Virus record (IMG/VR): IMGVR_UViG_2671180360_000006
DNA length: 21,446 nucleotides
Direction: 5' to 3' (one strand)
Source of the DNA: a virus
Taxonomy: Duplodnaviria > Heunggongvirae > Uroviricota > Caudoviricetes
Shown: one piece after another, positions 9,001 through 15,000 of the stretch
How positions within the stretch are numbered: position 1 is the stretch's first letter
How the letters are laid out: each line of letters starts with the position of its first letter
Position numbers: made by a program

Positions 9001-12000
9001 GCCATCGCGGGAGCACCGGGAAAGGACCACCACATTGCGGCGCAGTTTTCCCCTGCGTACCGGTGCCCGTGACACCACTTCTTCTTTCAGCACATTCGCA
9101 CCCGCACGGGTTGCCTCACGCAGCACCCGGTTATTTTCCGCACCACTCAGAAGCTGCAAATCGCGGCTGATGTCCTCCAGCCCCGAAAAATCCAGCAGGG
9201 TTTCGATCATTTTTCCCCTCCCAGCCGACAGAGAATTTCCAGACGCCCGCCGGTCGCATCCGGCACGGGCAGCCCGACAACGTTCAGGATCCGGTCACGC
9301 CATGGACCACTCAGCACATGAAGTCGTGACGCTGCCGTGATTTCCCGGCCGGACTGACCGCGCACCCAGATGCGGATTTCCGCCTGCGCCATTTCCGCAC
9401 CGGACTGCATCCGCTCCCGGCTGCTCCTGCCACGGATATCCGCATGAATTTTCCCGCATGACACCCATTCTTCCGTCATTTCTCCGGCAGCATTACGGGT
9501 TAACACCGGGTTCAGAACACTTATCATCTGTGTCAGACGACCTGCAGATATTGCCATTCCTCCCTCCTCATAACACCGTCGGACAACGCAAATCGTAAAT
9601 CAGCACGGACACAGAAAACGGCAGTTCCCCCTGCACGAGGTCTTCCCGCTCAGCAAGATCCGGATTCCGGTACAGCATCCCGGTCAGTCGCATGGCAGCC
9701 CCCTTCATCCGGGTTAATGCCTCGCCCGGGATCAGCTCACCGTCCTCACGAATCACTTTATCCCGGCTGCCCTGAATGTAGGCCAGCAGCACGGCGGTAG
9801 CCTGACGAACCTTGTCCATCAGCATGTCATCATCCGCGTCATGGTCAACACGCAGATGTGCCTTGATCTCTTCCAGTGTCAGTAATGCCGTCATTTTCCG
9901 CCTCCTGCATCCCGTCCACGTTTTGCAGCCAGGGTCCAGCCTGATGAATGAGCTTCTCCGGGTTTATCACCGGTCATACTGTTGCAGTGCCACAGCGAGC
10001 CCCCCCACGTCACCGTATCGCCGGGGTGGTAGGTTTTACCGGCTCTGAACACACCGCGGTAGAGCATCACCGGCAGGGAAAATGTTTTTTCCGTACACTG
10101 GCCACTGCTCTGCCGGATCACCACAGAGAACAACCGCTCATCCGTCATGCTGACGTCGATATCCGCCACCCCGTCAACCAGGCATTCCCATCCCCGCATC
10201 CCGTGCGTTTTTTCATACGCCCGCCAGAGTCCCCCCAGGTGTGTGGCATACGTGCCCCGGGGAAAGGATTTTTGATCGTCAATAGCGGGGAGCACTTCCA
10301 GTGCCGTGGCATCACGCCCGTCCTGCGGAGCCGGAAGGGCATTCACCGCCTCCAGAACCGCCTGCTTCAGTACTTCCGGATCGTAATCACGACCATCACG
10401 CGGAGCAGGGATATGGCTTACGGCCTCTTTCACCATCTGCTCAAGCATCGGACGCACATCATCGGGGGTGATACTTTTGCCGTCCGCCGGTACCGGAATA
10501 TTCGCAACCGCATCATTCACCGCCTGCTTCAGTACTTCCGGATCATAATCACGACCGTCACGCGGAGCAGGGATATGGCTTACAGCCTCTTTCACCATCT
10601 GCTCAAGCATCGGACGCACATCATCGGGGGTGATACTTTTGCCGTCCGCCGGTACCGGAATATTTGCGACCGCATCATTCACCGCCTGCTTCAGTACTTC
10701 CGGATCATAATCACGACCGTCACGCGGAGCAGGGATATGGCTTACAGCCTCTTTCACCATCTGCTCAAGCATCGGACGCACATCATCGGGGGTGATACTT
10801 TTGCCGTCCGCCGGTACCGGAATATTCGCAACCGCATCATTCACCGCCTGCTGCAGTACATCCGGATCATAATCACGACCATCACGCGGTACCGGAATGG
10901 TCCCCACAGCGTCATCCACCATCGCCTGCAGAACCGGATGTACCTCATCCACCGTCACATGCTTCTGTAATACCGCCGACAGGGAAGCCAGTTTCTCTTC
11001 AAACGCTTGTGCCTGCGCGGCCATCTTCCCCTCAAATGTGCGCTGTAAATCCGCCAGCACCGTGGAGAATTCTTCGCCCAGTGCACGAATAATGGACAGT
11101 TCCCGTTCCGTCATTTTCTCAGTATCCCCCTGAACATCGCTTTCACTGCATCATGCTCTGTTTCACTGATTGCCTTATTACCGTCAGATGCGCCGTCAGG
11201 CAGTTGTGCTGAAACTGTTTTCCCGGCCGACGCGAACGGGTCCTCACGGGCATCACGACGGGACAGCGCCTCCAGACTGTAGTTCTGCTGCTGAAGATAC
11301 AGTGCATCACCGCCGGCAAGGGGCGGCAGGTTCTCACGTTTACGGGCCTCATTGGGCGTGAGAAGCGTATTTTTCACCGATTCACCCAGTGTTTTCATGC
11401 GCCGTTCGCTGTCCATTCTCAGCAGCGTGGTGACGTCAAACTCCGTGCTCTCGTTTTCCCCCGTTTCCAGCGCCTCATCCAGTAACAGCTCAATAGACTC
11501 AATCAGCGTCTGCAGACACTGGGAATAATACTGCTGCTCCAGCGCCTCCACGTTGTCACTGGAAGGCGGGTGGCCAACGCCAATCTTGTAGGCCGGGACA
11601 CGGAACACCGAACAGACAATTTCAGCCGTCATTTTCAGTTGTTCCACCGTCTGCGCATCCACCGGTGAAAACGTCGTGGGGCTGTATTTTGCCCCGTTGC
11701 TCAGTATGGCCGTCTTCCCGGCATTTTCGCCCGTATATCCGCTGTCCCAGTTCCCCTTCAGTTTTTTCGCGTTTTCTTCCGTAATACTGCCGGGGACCTC
11801 AATCACGCCTGATGGTCGCCCGCCATTTCTGAAAAAATACGTCGAATTTGCCTGAATATGATGCCCCTGCATGGCGGCCAGTCCTGCGGCATACACCGGC
11901 GGCAGCCCCACAAGCGGATGAAAAAAACAGTTAAAACGGTCGTGGATCACCTCCCGGGCAGGCACCGTCACCGACTCTGTGATCCCACAGTTCCGGTCCG

Positions 12001-15000
12001 GCGTGATGCGGTAGAACACGTCGCCGTCATCCGCCACCAGAGGTTCAACCCGGTTCCAGTCCAGAATACGCAGTTCTTTGATCTGCCCCCGGGGGTTGCG
12101 GATTTTCAGCACCACCGTATTGCCGTGACGCAGTTTGGAATTCAGCCACAGTTCAAAAAACTGGATGCGATTCTGCTGCGCATTAGGACGACGACAGAGA
12201 CGGGCAGTATCTCCCTGCCGCTTTTCCCGGCGTATTCCCTGTACATCAGTCTGCATCAGGCGAAGCCGCATTTTGGCAATATCCTGGGATATCAGCGAAA
12301 TGCATGAAAACACCGCGTGAAAGGACAAAACGGTTTCCGGATCGGCTTTCACACCCTGCTGCCAGGCACCGGCAAAAGGCTCAGCCACCGCCTGAAACAG
12401 GGACCGCCAGCCCACTTCTCTTACGTCACGTCCTGATTTCTGGTTTTTTCGGGTTCGCCGCAAAAGGTTCCACATTCGCCATGCTCCGCATCACGTTTCT
12501 TTTTCTGACCTGCCGGACGTCGCGCTGTGATGTACTCCGCCTTCCCCAGGCGAACCAGCACCTCCGCACACGGCTGTGCCACATCACGGATATCCCCGGC
12601 CCGGGCATCATGCGTGCCCTGCAGATATCGGATCTTTGCCATAACCTGTTACGGGAGGCGCACGCCTCCCATCCTCCTCATCAGACTCAGCCGCCGGACG
12701 CACTGCCGTAGTTCACTCCGGTGATCACCGCCACCGCCGCGGTACGGCGACGACGCCAGTTGATCCAGCGCTCCGCACGGATGGCCACGCTGCCTGTCTG
12801 GAACATGGAAACCAGCTCCACCGGGGACGGCGTGGTACTGTCGCCGCCCGGCTCAGACTGCATTTCCAGTGATGCCTCGCGGGACATATCCACTGCCACG
12901 CCGCCGTCATCCGCCAGATAAATATCCGGGGCATTCACCAGCACCAGCTGGTCACCCACGTACTGGGAGACAATCACCGGCAGCCCCTGGAAGGAGCCAC
13001 CCAGCAGGGTCATGTCCGGGTATTCCTTCTGACCCAGCGCATTTTTACGCATGGACAGTGCCAGGGCATTGGTGCTGGACATCAGCCAGACCGCACCGGT
13101 GGGCTGCAGATTTGCTGCCACAAACTGGCCAAACGCCGCCTCTGCATCCGCATCCGGGTTACCGGTTGATGCCGTGCCCTTCACATCATGGGTGATGGAC
13201 GCCGGGGAGACATCTGCCACTGCGGCTTTTTTCGGGTCCACAAAGTCTGTATCCAGACGCGCCACCACCGCTTCCGCCAGCGCATTACGGACCAGTGCAT
13301 CAGCAGCCGGACTGGAAAAACGGATCAATTCTTCCGTCAGTACCGCAATGGCCGACACTTTCGCATGACTGAAGGTGATGGATTCAAAATCAAACTTCGT
13401 CAGGGGTTTTGCCTTACCCTCCCCCACCCAGCCGGCAGCACCGCCGGACACCTGGGCATGCACGCGGATATTGAACGGCACCTGACGAAGTGCAGGGATC
13501 CCGCCCTGACCAAATCGCCCGATAATGGTCTGCGGACGCAGGTAATCAATAAAGTCCTGCGCATATTCCTGATATTCAGACAGGCTGCCTGCCCACTGTG
13601 GGTCCGTGGTGGTCCCTGCCCCCACCGCCGATTTCAGGACATGATGCAGACGGCTGTCATCCGGATACTGACGACGGGCCACTTCCAGGGCTTCAGAGCG
13701 GACACCTTTAGCCGCGGCCAGTGATTTGGCAAAGCGGGCGAAACCAATCCCCTTCTCCAGTTTCTGCTCAACACGGATCACCGGCGCTGAAGCCACCGTG
13801 GCCACATTCCCGTTACCGGCCTGTTTCACCGGCTGTGCCGTGGCGGCCTTACTGGTTTCCAGTTCACGCAGACGCTTCAGGTGCGCATCCACCTGACGGA
13901 TTTCCGCTGCGGTGTTGTCGTAGTGCTCTTCCTCTTCCACATCCAGTGTGCGGCCTTCCTCTGCGGCTTTGTTCATGATCTCCTCAAGGGAGGCTGCCAG
14001 CGCCGCACGCTTGTTTTCAAAACTTTTAATCTGTTCACCAGTATTCATTGCTGACTTTTCCTTATGAAAAGAGGTTATTGACTGTGCCGAAGCGCCGGCA
14101 GAAGATGCGATTTTCACCACCGGTTTCCGGTTGCCGGACGCGGCAGAAAACGGGCGGTCGTAAGATTTAATGGTCCGGATGGTGCATTCCGCATTCGCGG
14201 GCACGGTGACGGCAGACACCTCCATCAGTTCCCAGCGCAGAAAATGCAGTCCGCCTCCGTCCAGAAAGGTGTATTCATGGGGACGGAAGCCCACGGACAG
14301 CCCCCTGACCAGCCCGGTCTTAATGGCCGCCCAGACCTCATCCAGCCGGGCTGCCATCTGGGAGGGCATCCCCGGCTCCGGCTTCACCAGCATTGCCGTG
14401 ATTTCCAGCCCTTCGCTGACCCGGCGCACCGTACACTGCCCCACCGGGCGGGAATGGTCATGCTGCCAGAGAAACGGGATCGCACTGCCAAACTCCGCGC
14501 CCTCCGGCTCCAGGATGTCACCATCCCGATCCGGAGAAGGCGTTGACGCAATCCCGGTGATCACTCGTTCATCCTCACTGAAGGATTTCACCGTCAGCAG
14601 GGAACAGGCCCGTTTAAGAGTCACATCAGCCTCCTGAAAATAAAAAAACCGCCGGAGCGGTTCGTGATGGTTACAGTGTGAACAGGGTTATATGAAAAAA
14701 ACCGCATATTCTTTCTTTTTCGGTTCCGGGTTAAGGGACATCAGGGAGACCGCATTGAACAGCGCCATCAGCGGGTCAATTTTTCCCCGTCCACTGGCCT
14801 GTTTGGTGATAAGAATGGCGTTACCTTTAGGCTCCACCCGGGCATTGCCGACACACCAGGCCATCAGGGGCTGGTCACCATGCACCAGCACCCCTTCAGC
14901 CAGTTTGCGCTCGGTGGTTTTAATGGCCCCGCCCAGTTTCCAGCCCTGGCTTATCCCCACCACAATTCCGTCGGGGATCCCGGCTTCCGCCAGTGAATCC

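What the first reader, a model, noticed from the sequence alone, without database searches (positions are those of the whole stretch)
11111..14624. Non-canonical head gene order: terminase, then protease-capsid fusion, then portal
In HK97-like modules the usual order is terminase, portal, protease, capsid. Here a single 645-aa ORF fuses an S78 prohead protease domain, a coiled-coil scaffold-like segment and an HK97-fold capsid domain, and it precedes the portal gene. The fusion implies autoproteolytic release of the mature capsid protein. The reordering may mark a distinct lineage or a recombination junction; a 211-nt gap with a possible small ORF separates the two genes.
Basis: partly seen in the sequence, partly recalled or inferred. 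Interest (0 to 1): 0.5.

Follow-up and report, generated by a model that had tools for sequence, protein, structure and literature searches.

The report
Protease-capsid fusion gene preceding portal
This is the already catalogued head-assembly module of a long-tailed Shiga-toxin-type E. coli prophage, in which the capsid protein and its maturation protease are one gene placed ahead of the portal gene; the one new point is a conserved internal start codon suggesting that the gene makes two proteins.

Summary
On the minus strand the order is HNH, terS, terL, a 645-aa S78 protease / helical scaffold / HK97-fold capsid ORF (12687-14624), a 73-aa ORF, portal (11111-12475), a 407-aa repeat protein, then connector and tail genes.

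It is not new. The 7-kb head block is 97-98% identical to many Stx1a/Stx2a/Stx2c-converting phages (including Sawaravirus WGPS2). It occurs in 1255 of 5426 complete E. coli genomes. Pseudomonas phage PAJU2 has the same order, and its gp03 is annotated "prohead protease fused capsid protein".

The order terL, protease(-)capsid, small ORF, portal holds in every related locus checked from Alpha-, Beta- and Gammaproteobacteria, down to 32-43% capsid identity. Capsid and portal identities co-vary (r=0.82). So this is an old lineage trait, not a recombination joint.

What I add:
- A Shine-Dalgarno-like motif plus ATG at Met193 is conserved throughout the fused clade, inside an otherwise unconserved, predicted-disordered linker.
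- It lies exactly where unfused relatives start their capsid gene.
- The ORF therefore probably yields two C-coterminal products: protease-scaffold-capsid and scaffold-capsid. This is inferred, not shown.

The 211-nt gap holds a conserved hairpin and a conserved small gene (phrog_829).

The parts
17200..17565 (-). HNH endonuclease gene upstream of the terminase genes (HK97-type cos packaging accessory)
   Evidence: Pfam HNH E=5e-6; annotated as HNH endonuclease in the Stx2a_WGPS2 and RefSeq records; conserved upstream of terS in related loci.
16346..16909 (-). terminase small subunit
   Evidence: Pfam Terminase_2 and phrog_641 E=2e-68.
14688..16349 (-). terminase large subunit
   Evidence: Pfam TerL_ATPase plus TerL_nuclease; phrog_9 E=2e-145.
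14646..14663 (-). terminator-like GC hairpin plus T-run between terL and the fusion ORF, followed by AGGAGG and the GTG start
   Evidence: Terminator scan; the same hairpin plus T-run precedes the fusion ORF in the Enterobacterales loci.
12687..14624 (-). 645-aa protease / scaffold / HK97-fold major capsid ORF (GTG start, TGA stop)
   Evidence: RefSeq gives the same coordinates by homology. 2768 database homologues at E<=1e-5; 1170 cluster representatives at E<=1e-30.
14202..14624 (-). S78 prohead serine protease domain (residues 1-141; His55 and Ser110)
   Evidence: Pfam PF04586. 30% identity to HK97 gp4 residues 25-162, with Ser110 aligned to gp4 Ser114 and His55 one position from gp4 His65. 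His55 and Ser110 are invariant in 60 homologues. Confident fold in the AF2 model.
14049..14201 (-). predicted-disordered linker (residues 142-192), the least conserved part of the protein
   Evidence: pLDDT below 50. Mean pairwise identity is 0.43 over the linker and 0.20 over the last 10 residues.
14046..14063 (-). internal Shine-Dalgarno-like AAGGA (14059-14063) and ATG of Met193 (14046-14048): candidate internal start for a 453-aa scaffold-capsid product
   Evidence: Sequence read. Start codon plus SD conserved in 20 of 22 diverged loci, the best-scoring column of the alignment. Met in 55 of 60 homologues; Val visible at the aligned position in at least four of the other five. Unfused relatives start the capsid gene at the homologous Met.
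13842..14042 (-). scaffold-like helical hairpin (residues 195-261), the analogue of the HK97 delta domain
   Evidence: AF2 helices 195-223 and 229-261 with pLDDT about 90.
12690..13607 (-). HK97-fold capsid domain (about residues 340-645)
   Evidence: Pfam Phage_capsid at residues 386-635. Foldseek hits to Bxb1, HK97, D3 and T5 capsid proteins, probability 1.00.
12653..12670 (-). GC-rich hairpin (GGGAGGC-GTGC-GCCTCCC) 16 nt after the capsid stop codon
   Evidence: Sequence. A strong hairpin occupies the same position after the capsid stop in all 22 loci folded, with different stem sequences; some carry a T-run.
12421..12642 (-). 73-aa small ORF (phrog_829 family), conserved between capsid and portal genes; overlaps the portal start by 55 nt
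   Evidence: phrog_829 E=2e-39. tblastn hits at the same position in most loci. Alignment with Snodgrassella, Moraxella, Burkholderia and Stenotrophomonas homologues.
11111..12475 (-). HK97-type portal protein (454 aa)
   Evidence: Pfam Phage_portal 267 bits. 28% identity to HK97 gp3, E=5e-23. 454-aa clusters with more than 2000 member sequences.
9891..11114 (-). 407-aa repeat protein of unknown role; its ATG overlaps the portal stop (ATGA); contains a 162-nt x 3.3 tandem repeat at 10357-10889
   Evidence: Homologues follow the portal gene in related loci and in PAJU2 and SOVA965.
9568..9894 (-). head-tail adaptor Ad1 (gp6-like), the first of the canonical connector and tail genes that follow
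   Evidence: Pfam Phage_connect_1 and phrog_40.

Best explanation
This is the head-morphogenesis module of a long-tailed lambdoid (Stx-converting, Sawaravirus-type) E. coli prophage.

It belongs to an old HK97-like lineage whose fixed order is terS, terL, protease, scaffold-capsid, small ORF, portal. In one large clade of that lineage the stop codon between protease and capsid has been lost, giving a single 645-aa ORF.

Proposed mechanism (inferred):
1. Ribosomes starting at GTG 14624 make a roughly 70-kDa protease-linker-scaffold-capsid protein.
2. Ribosomes starting at the retained capsid start, Met193 (ATG 14048-14046, preceded by AAGGA), make a roughly 50-kDa scaffold-capsid protein equivalent to HK97 gp5.
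3. Both co-assemble on the portal through the same capsid and scaffold parts. The protease therefore enters the procapsid as a covalent N-terminal extension of some subunits, rather than through a separate targeting tail as in HK97 gp4.
4. Inside the shell the Ser110/His55 protease removes itself, the linker and the scaffold domain. By weak homology to the HK97 gp5 maturation site, the cut lies near residues 332-340, leaving a mature capsid protein of roughly 305-315 aa.
5. The hairpin after the capsid stop and the small ORF that overlaps the portal start probably lower and couple expression of the portal gene, which is needed at about 12 copies.
For: Shown:
- Domain content, fold and coordinates.
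- Catalytic residues: His55 and Ser110 are invariant in 60 homologues of 36-78% identity. Ser110 aligns with HK97 gp4 Ser114, and His55 lies one position from gp4 His65.
- Lineage-wide order: terL, protease-capsid, portal in every locus whose portal region was recovered, from Enterobacterales, Marinobacter, Hydrocarboniphaga, Snodgrassella and Alphaproteobacteria. The same order holds in phages PAJU2, vB_FUBS1, Mcat5 and SOVA965.
- Capsid and portal identities co-vary, r=0.82.

Support for the internal start:
- The AAGGA-N10-ATG motif was read directly.
- A start codon with an anti-SD duplex of -4.5 kcal/mol or stronger lies within 3 columns of Met193 in 20 of 22 loci. That is the top-scoring column in the whole alignment, above the annotated start at 18 of 22.
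- The 10 residues upstream have only 0.20 mean identity, yet always encode a GGA/GGAGG core through different amino acids (KG, KE, QEG, KEG, REG, TEG).
- Where a Gly codon precedes the Met in the Enterobacterales loci, it is always GGA. GGA makes up 9.6% of Gly codons in these genes overall.
- 55 of 60 diverse fused homologues have Met within 3 residues of the position, against a 2.4% Met background. At least four of the other five show Val at the aligned position, which is compatible with a GTG start.
- Met193 is the first residue after the disordered linker and immediately precedes the first scaffold helix.
- Unfused relatives (Snodgrassella, Burkholderia vB_FUBS1, Moraxella Mcat5, Stenotrophomonas SOVA965) begin a separate capsid gene at the homologous M-x-x-x-E-Q-I.
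- Some database representatives of 456-478 aa start at query residue 193-197.
- In a neighbour-joining tree the fused forms make one deep clade. The start signal has therefore persisted since an old fusion, not because the fusion is recent.
Against: - No protein-level or ribosome-profiling data were found for any member. Two products, their ratio and the cleavage sites are all inferred.
- The upstream start has the stronger SD (AGGAGG, 6-nt spacing), although it uses GTG in the E. coli lineage. The internal SD is weaker (AAGGA, 10-nt spacing) and lies inside a translated ORF, so internal initiation could be minor.
- One other alignment position (residues about 577-583) also scores 18 of 22 for SD plus start. 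It lies in a strongly conserved DDGG...V/M peptide (0.74 identity). This shows the measure can be raised by protein constraint alone.
- The proposed maturation site rests on a statistically insignificant BLAST segment against HK97 gp5 plus a low-pLDDT stretch at residues 334-338.
- The protease domain of the AF2 model was not compared on its own with solved protease structures.
Confidence: 0.6

Rival explanations
1. Only the full-length 645-aa polyprotein is made. Every one of the several hundred shell subunits carries its own protease, which cuts itself and the scaffold off after assembly. The internal SD-like motif and Met193 are a relic of the ancestral separate capsid gene, or are kept for another reason such as a protein-level role or a translational pause between domains.
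For: The ORF is uninterrupted and has a strong SD at its 5' start. The literature describes such genes simply as protease-(scaffold-)capsid fusions, with no mention of an internal start (PMC5513430, PMC7302621). A control position shows that SD-plus-start conservation can arise from protein constraint.
Against: A relic should decay in a linker whose residues are only 20% identical, yet the SD core and the Met or Val persist across a deep fused clade (36-78% identity). Exclusive use of the rare GGA codon points to nucleotide-level selection.
Confidence: 0.3
2. The capsid-before-portal order marks a recent recombination joint. On this view a protease-capsid cassette from another phage was inserted between the terminase and portal genes of an HK97-like module.
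For: Phage genomes are mosaic. GC content is slightly higher in the capsid ORF (0.59-0.61) than in the portal gene (about 0.555). A non-coding hairpin and a small ORF lie between the two genes.
Against: The same order, including the small ORF, holds in all related loci and phages examined, down to 32-43% capsid identity and in both fused and unfused forms. Capsid and portal identities co-vary (r=0.82). Where discordance exists, it is terL that has been exchanged: 22-26% identity in L027, L030 and L031, and 84% against 66% in L004 and L008.
Confidence: 0.04
3. The fusion is an artefact or a decay product. A lost stop codon or a frameshift in a defective prophage, or an assembly error, would have joined two genes, and the ORF would not be functional as such.
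For: EHEC genomes carry many defective lambdoid prophages. The neighbouring portal/orf407 pair does show a G5/G6 length polymorphism that fuses or splits the genes.
Against: The 645-aa form is the standard one. One cluster has 9916 member sequences. There are 1170 representatives at E<=1e-30, most of the listed 150 being 630-680 aa. The form is present in phage records from cultured hosts: BP-4795, YYZ-2008, PAJU2 and FSL SP-016. Catalytic residues are invariant.
Confidence: 0.02

Closest known systems
Long-tailed Stx-converting / lambdoid E. coli phages: Sawaravirus WGPS2 (Stx2a_WGPS2), BP-4795, YYZ-2008, JLK-2012 and Stx1a phages
   Same: 97-98% nucleotide identity over the whole 7-kb terS-to-orf407 block, with identical gene order. 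The fusion protein is 96-99% identical. It is annotated 'major head protein/prohead protease', 'phage prohead protease' or 'major capsid protein'.
   Different: Only allelic differences: the number of 162-nt repeat copies in orf407, and G5 versus G6 at the portal/orf407 junction.
Pseudomonas phage PAJU2 gp01-gp09
   Same: The order is terS, terL, gp03 (annotated 'prohead protease fused capsid protein', 668 aa, 48.5% identical), small ORFs, portal, an orf407-like gp07, Ad1 and Hc1. It has the same internal AGGAGG-N8-ATG at Met197.
   Different: Two small ORFs lie between capsid and portal rather than one. The host and the rest of the genome differ (classified in Detrevirus in the record).
HK97 gp3 / gp4 / gp5 (portal, S78 protease, delta-domain capsid protein)
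   Same: The same three protein families. Portal is 28% identical and protease 30% identical, with Ser110 aligned to gp4 Ser114 and His55 one position from gp4 His65. The capsid fold matches. A scaffold domain is fused to the N-terminus of the capsid protein, and a hairpin follows the capsid gene.
   Different: HK97 order is terL, portal, protease, capsid, with protease and capsid as separate genes. From my own knowledge of the HK97 literature, not checked here, HK97 gp4 is recruited through its own C-terminal tail. Here the equivalent region is a covalent linker. Capsid sequence similarity to gp5 is not detectable by BLASTP.
Protease-scaffold-capsid fusion genes of small-genome actinobacteriophages (clusters AN, AM/AU, EE and others) and S78-capsid fusions in thaumarchaeal proviruses
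   Same: The same concept of one gene encoding maturation protease plus (scaffold plus) capsid. These are described as 'fused protease-capsid gene' and 'protease-scaffold-capsid fusion' (PMC5513430, PMC7302621, PMC9671004, PMC6563490).
   Different: These are different sequence families. I did not check their gene order or whether they carry an internal start.
Nested in-frame protease/scaffold gene pairs: lambda C/Nu3 and herpesvirus UL26/UL26.5 (from my own knowledge of the literature, not checked here)
   Same: A long product carrying the protease and a shorter, C-coterminal product made from an internal in-frame start. The shared C-terminal part takes the protease into the procapsid.
   Different: In those systems the shared part is the scaffold only and the capsid protein is a separate gene. 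Here the shared part would be scaffold plus capsid protein. The two-product expression is inferred here, not demonstrated.

Membership tests
Peptidase S78 (HK97 gp4-type prohead serine protease) | Sequence match to PF04586 above the curated cut-off | tested here: met
   34.0 bits against a cut-off of 21, residues 48-152. 30% identity to HK97 gp4 residues 25-162, E=1e-8.
Peptidase S78 (HK97 gp4-type prohead serine protease) | Catalytic His and Ser present at the positions of HK97 gp4 His65 and Ser114 (residue numbers from my knowledge of the HK97 literature) | tested here: met
   Ser110 aligns with gp4 Ser114. His55 lies one position from gp4 His65 in the BLAST alignment. Both are invariant in 60 homologues.
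Peptidase S78 (HK97 gp4-type prohead serine protease) | Proteolytic activity on the capsid precursor | not testable with these tools
   Needs S110A/H55A mutants and protein analysis.
HK97-fold major capsid protein (Pfam Phage_capsid, PF05065) | Sequence match above the curated cut-off | tested here: met
   52.7 bits against a cut-off of 24.2, residues 386-635. phrog_617 E=2e-259.
HK97-fold major capsid protein (Pfam Phage_capsid, PF05065) | HK97 fold | tested here: met
   The AF2 model (pLDDT mostly 75-95 over residues 340-640) matches Bxb1, HK97, D3 and T5 capsid chains by Foldseek, E=6e-15 to 1e-9, probability 1.00.
HK97-fold major capsid protein (Pfam Phage_capsid, PF05065) | N-terminal scaffold (delta-like) domain removed on maturation | tested here: inconclusive
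   A helical hairpin at 195-261 is predicted with high confidence. Its removal and the cleavage site are inferred only.
HK97-type portal (Pfam Phage_portal, PF04860) | Sequence match above the cut-off and homology to HK97 gp3 | tested here: met
   267.3 bits against a cut-off of 39.1. 28% identity to gp3 over 364 residues, E=5e-23.
Protease-(scaffold-)capsid fusion genes | Protease, scaffold-like and capsid parts in one uninterrupted ORF that is conserved as such | tested here: met
   Fused ORFs of 633-709 aa occur in 20 of the 21 fused related loci checked, plus an 883-aa open frame in L031. Most listed representatives are 630-680 aa.
Nested in-frame gene pair (lambda C/Nu3-like expression) | Internal in-frame start codon with a ribosome-binding site, conserved among relatives | tested here: met
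Nested in-frame gene pair (lambda C/Nu3-like expression) | Two C-coterminal polypeptides actually produced | not testable with these tools
   No proteomic or ribosome-profiling data were found. The phage 2851 paper could not be retrieved and the PAJU2 description did not appear among the library hits.
Long-tailed Stx-type lambdoid prophage (Sawaravirus-like) | High nucleotide identity and synteny with classified members | tested here: met
   96.9% identity over 7019 nt to NC_049941 (Sawaravirus WGPS2), with the same genes from tail to lysis region.

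The most novel reading that the evidence does not exclude
The 'fusion' may really be a nested gene pair. If so, throughout a large and old clade of HK97-like phages one ORF gives two products:
- a protease-scaffold-capsid protein from the 5' start;
- a more conventional scaffold-capsid protein from a conserved internal start (Met193 here).

The maturation protease would then be delivered and dosed as an N-terminal extension of a subset of shell subunits. That would extend the lambda C/Nu3 and herpesvirus UL26/UL26.5 principle from scaffold proteins to the capsid protein itself. 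It would also explain why fused and split forms interconvert by gain or loss of a single stop codon.
Probability: 0.55. Interest if true: 0.5.

Novelty: already known. Interest (0 to 1): 0.25.

Why it matters
As stated, the finding matters little. The gene order and the fusion are standard, already annotated features of a very common EHEC prophage family and of phage PAJU2.

It is still useful for annotation:
- Capsid-before-portal is a lineage marker, not a sign of rearrangement.
- The 645-aa ORF should be labelled protease plus scaffold plus capsid, not just one of them.
- The portal gene and the downstream 407-aa gene are separate genes, not a 'frameshifted portal'.

The conserved internal start, if confirmed, would give a simple and testable answer to how protease copy number is set in phages that fuse protease to capsid. 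These prophages are inducible in well-studied E. coli strains, so the experiment is easy.

Tried and rejected
- BLASTP of the fusion protein against HK97 gp5 gave nothing significant. Capsid identity rests on Pfam, PHROGs and fold instead.
- A sequence search of the PDB gave only a weak hit to 9d9w/9d9x (E=0.0018), which the fold search identified as Bxb1 capsid.
- Rfam found no family anywhere in the window.
- The promoter/terminator scan was at background level, apart from the terL-capsid hairpin.
- Literature searches for virion proteomics or N-terminal data on this phage group found nothing usable. The phage 2851 paper (PMC2583581) is not held. A paper on Stx phage Lys8385Vzw only lists the genes.
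- Programmed -1 frameshifting at the portal/orf407 junction was considered, because the G5 tract could give the same peptide as the G6 alleles. It was set aside because other genera lack the G-run and keep an ATGA overlap.
- An AF2 model of orf407 was too poor to use (pLDDT 41.6).
- A profile search of the PDB with orf407 gave only weak chitin-binding-module hits.
- The second SD-plus-start peak at residues 577-583 was rejected as a start site. It lies inside the conserved core of the capsid fold and is explained by a conserved DDGG...V/M peptide.

Full report
**Observation**

All large ORFs of the window lie on the minus strand. Read 5' to 3' on that strand they are:
- HNH endonuclease, 17200-17565
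- terS, 16346-16909
- terL, 14688-16349
- a 645-aa ORF, 12687-14624, with a GTG start
- a 73-aa ORF, 12421-12642
- a 454-aa ORF, 11111-12475
- a 407-aa ORF, 9891-11114
- head-tail adaptor, head closure, gp10-like, tail terminator, major tail protein, G/T chaperones and tape measure

- The 645-aa ORF carries Peptidase_S78 (residues 48-152, 34 bits) and Phage_capsid (386-635, 52.7 bits). It matches the 626-position profile phrog_617 end to end (E=2e-259).
- The 454-aa ORF is a Phage_portal protein (267 bits). It is 28% identical to HK97 gp3.

An AlphaFold2 model built on 60 homologues shows four parts: a folded protease at 1-141, a low-confidence linker at 142-191, a helical hairpin at 195-261 with pLDDT about 90, and an alpha/beta domain running to residue 645. 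Foldseek matches that last domain to the capsid proteins of Bxb1, HK97, D3 and T5 with probability 1.00.

HK97 itself has the order terS, terL, portal, protease, capsid.

**What the element is**

The 7-kb head block is 97-98% identical to dozens of Stx1a-, Stx2a- and Stx2c-converting phages. These include Sawaravirus WGPS2; BP-4795, YYZ-2008 and JLK-2012 carry a 96-97% identical fusion protein. It is present in 1255 of 5426 complete E. coli genomes, at a median of five places per genome.

Those records annotate the 645-aa gene as 'major head protein/prohead protease', 'phage prohead protease' or 'major capsid protein'. The window is therefore a copy of a very well-sampled long-tailed lambdoid prophage.

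**Lineage trait or recombination joint?**

A scan of one genome per species returned 29 loci encoding relatives of the fusion protein. They come from Enterobacterales, Marinobacter, Hydrocarboniphaga, Snodgrassella and several Alphaproteobacteria.

tblastn with the window's proteins found terL, protease-capsid, (small ORF), portal in that order in every locus whose portal region was recovered, down to 32-43% capsid identity.

Annotated phages show the same order:
- Burkholderia vB_FUBS1
- Moraxella Mcat5
- Stenotrophomonas SOVA965

In the last three, and in Snodgrassella, protease and capsid are separate adjacent genes. The order therefore does not depend on the fusion.

Capsid and portal identities to the window co-vary across loci (r=0.82). 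The discordant gene is terL. It is 22-26% identical in three loci whose capsid and portal proteins are 32-54% identical, and 84% rather than about 66% in two Enterobacterales loci.

If there is a mosaic joint, it lies upstream of the fusion gene, where a terminator-like hairpin sits (14646-14663). It does not lie between capsid and portal. The 'distinct lineage' reading is supported and the 'recombination junction' reading is not.

**The fusion gene in detail**

His55 and Ser110 are invariant among 60 homologues of 36-78% identity. Ser110 aligns with Ser114 of HK97 gp4, and His55 lies one position from gp4 His65 in the BLAST alignment. The protease is therefore very probably active.

The fused architecture is the norm in this family.
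- 2768 database proteins match at E<=1e-5, the listed ones being about 645 aa with both Pfam domains.
- 1170 representatives of 50%-identity clusters match at E<=1e-30, most of the listed 150 being 630-680 aa.

Protease-capsid and protease-scaffold-capsid fusions are also described in the literature for other families. Examples are Arthrobacter phage clusters AM/AU and AN (PMC5513430), small-genome actinobacteriophages (PMC7302621, PMC9671004) and thaumarchaeal proviruses (PMC6563490).

**A conserved internal start**

Reading the DNA at the end of the linker shows TAAGGAAAAGTCAGCA-ATG. The ATG (14048-14046) encodes Met193. Several observations point to a functional start.
- In an alignment of 22 diverged fused ORFs, a start codon with an anti-Shine-Dalgarno duplex of -4.5 kcal/mol or stronger lies within three columns of this position in 20 sequences. 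This is the highest value anywhere in the alignment, above the annotated 5' start at 18 of 22.
- The ten residues upstream are the least conserved of the protein (mean pairwise identity 0.20, against 0.60 overall). They nevertheless always encode a GGA or GGAGG core, through different amino acids (KG, KE, QEG, KEG, REG, TEG), 4-10 nt before the start codon.
- Where a Gly codon is used in the Enterobacterales loci, it is always GGA. GGA accounts for 9.6% of Gly codons in these genes.
- Among 60 broader homologues, 55 have Met within three residues of the position (Met background 2.4%). At least four of the other five show Val at the aligned position, as expected for ATG or GTG starts.
- PAJU2 has AGGAGG-N8-ATG at Met197.
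- The unfused relatives begin their capsid genes at the homologous residue, each behind its own SD: MTIAEKI in vB_FUBS1, MNYKAQL in Mcat5, MKTYAEQI in SOVA965, and MTIEEQI in Snodgrassella.
- Several database representatives of 456-478 aa start at query residues 193-197.
- In the structure model, Met193 is the first residue after the disordered linker and precedes the first scaffold helix.
- A neighbour-joining tree places the fused forms in one deep clade, with three split forms as outgroup and SOVA965 nested beside PAJU2. The start signal has therefore been kept since an old fusion event.

One control tempers this. A second position (residues 577-583) scores 18 of 22. It lies in a strongly conserved DDGG...V/M peptide (identity 0.74), where the signal is explained by protein constraint.

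I conclude, as an inference at roughly 55-60% confidence, that the ORF is expressed as a nested pair. One product is a roughly 70-kDa protease-scaffold-capsid protein. The other is a roughly 50-kDa scaffold-capsid protein equivalent to HK97 gp5.

**Proposed mechanism**

Both products would share the scaffold and capsid parts and co-assemble. The protease would then be carried into the procapsid covalently, rather than by a separate targeting tail. This is the principle of lambda C/Nu3 and herpesvirus UL26/UL26.5 (my knowledge of the literature), but with the capsid protein as the carrier.

After assembly the protease would remove itself, the linker and the scaffold domain. A weak alignment with the HK97 gp5 maturation site, together with a low-confidence stretch at residues 334-338, suggests a cut near residues 332-340. 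That would leave about 305-315 residues. This step is the least secure.

The main rival is that only the full-length protein is made and the internal signal is vestigial. It cannot be excluded without protein data, and I give it about 30%.

**The 211-nt gap**

Sixteen nucleotides after the capsid stop lies a GC hairpin (12653-12670). A strong hairpin occupies the same place in all 22 loci folded. The stem sequences differ and some carry a T-run. HK97 is annotated with a putative terminator at the equivalent place.

The 73-aa ORF that follows belongs to phrog_829. It has positional homologues of about 55 aa, with the motif M-x-K-I-R-Y-L-Q-x-T-H-D...A-x-V-L-V-x-L-G-K-A-E-Y and a basic tail. These occur in Enterobacterales, Snodgrassella, Moraxella, Burkholderia and Stenotrophomonas. 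It is a real gene of unknown function.

In the E. coli lineage the ORF runs 55 nt into the portal gene.

The hairpin and the overlap plausibly reduce and couple expression of the low-copy portal gene after the high-copy capsid gene. This is inference.

**Verdict**

The arrangement is already known and annotated, so the finding itself is of low interest.

The conserved internal start is the one feature I did not find described in the papers searched. It is easily testable.

Noticed in passing
window 9891-11114 (minus); tandem repeat 10357-10889: The 407-aa gene after the portal has a long N-terminal helix, 3.3 copies of a 162-nt (54-aa) repeat built from 'IPxPxDG' helix-loop units, and a conserved C-terminal beta domain with a weak chitin-binding (CBM5/12) signature. 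Repeat number varies between relatives, and SOVA965 has collagen-like GxDG repeats instead. Public records call it 'portal protein', but its function is unknown. The AF2 model was unusable (pLDDT 42).
   Followed up: partly
window 11111-11130 (minus): The portal/orf407 junction shows a length polymorphism. The window has a G5 tract (11126-11130), so the portal stops at 11111 with an ATGA overlap onto the orf407 start. Many E. coli records have G6, giving an in-frame portal-orf407 fusion ('...AMFRGDTEKMTERE...'). PGAP flags the split form as a 'frameshifted' pseudogene. However, 454-aa portals form clusters of more than 2000 members, and other genera keep the ATGA overlap without a G-run, so split looks ancestral.
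   Followed up: partly
window 12421-12642 (minus): The small ORF (phrog_829) between capsid and portal is conserved across proteobacterial phages as a protein of about 55 aa with a basic tail. In the E. coli lineage it is 73 aa and overlaps the first 18 codons of the portal gene.
   Followed up: partly
window 14646-14663 (minus): A canonical-looking intrinsic terminator (7-bp GC stem plus T-run) lies between the terL stop and the fusion-gene SD. It is conserved across the Enterobacterales loci. It coincides with the place where terL appears to have been exchanged in some relatives.
   Followed up: partly
window 14622-14624 (minus): The fusion ORF starts with GTG in the E. coli lineage, whereas relatives in other genera mostly use ATG behind the same AGGAGG. 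This could lower the yield of the protease-bearing long product relative to the internal ATG product.
   Followed up: no
window 1013-2059 (minus): A low-GC (about 44%) ORF with P22 antirepressor N- and C-terminal domains sits between tail genes L (2625-3350) and K (221-997, JAB plus NlpC/P60). It looks like an inserted moron within the tail operon.
   Followed up: no
window 7641-8426 (minus): The major tail protein carries a C-terminal Ig-like domain (Pfam Ig_3, Ig_2 and I-set at residues about 172-250), a common decoration of siphovirus tail tubes.
   Followed up: no
L036 (Stenotrophomonas phage SOVA965) 3502-5587: SOVA965 is a split form (protease, a 123-nt spacer, then capsid) nested within the otherwise fused clade next to PAJU2. 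Its capsid gene is annotated in two overlapping pieces, which suggests either a real secondary split or indel errors in that record.
   Followed up: no
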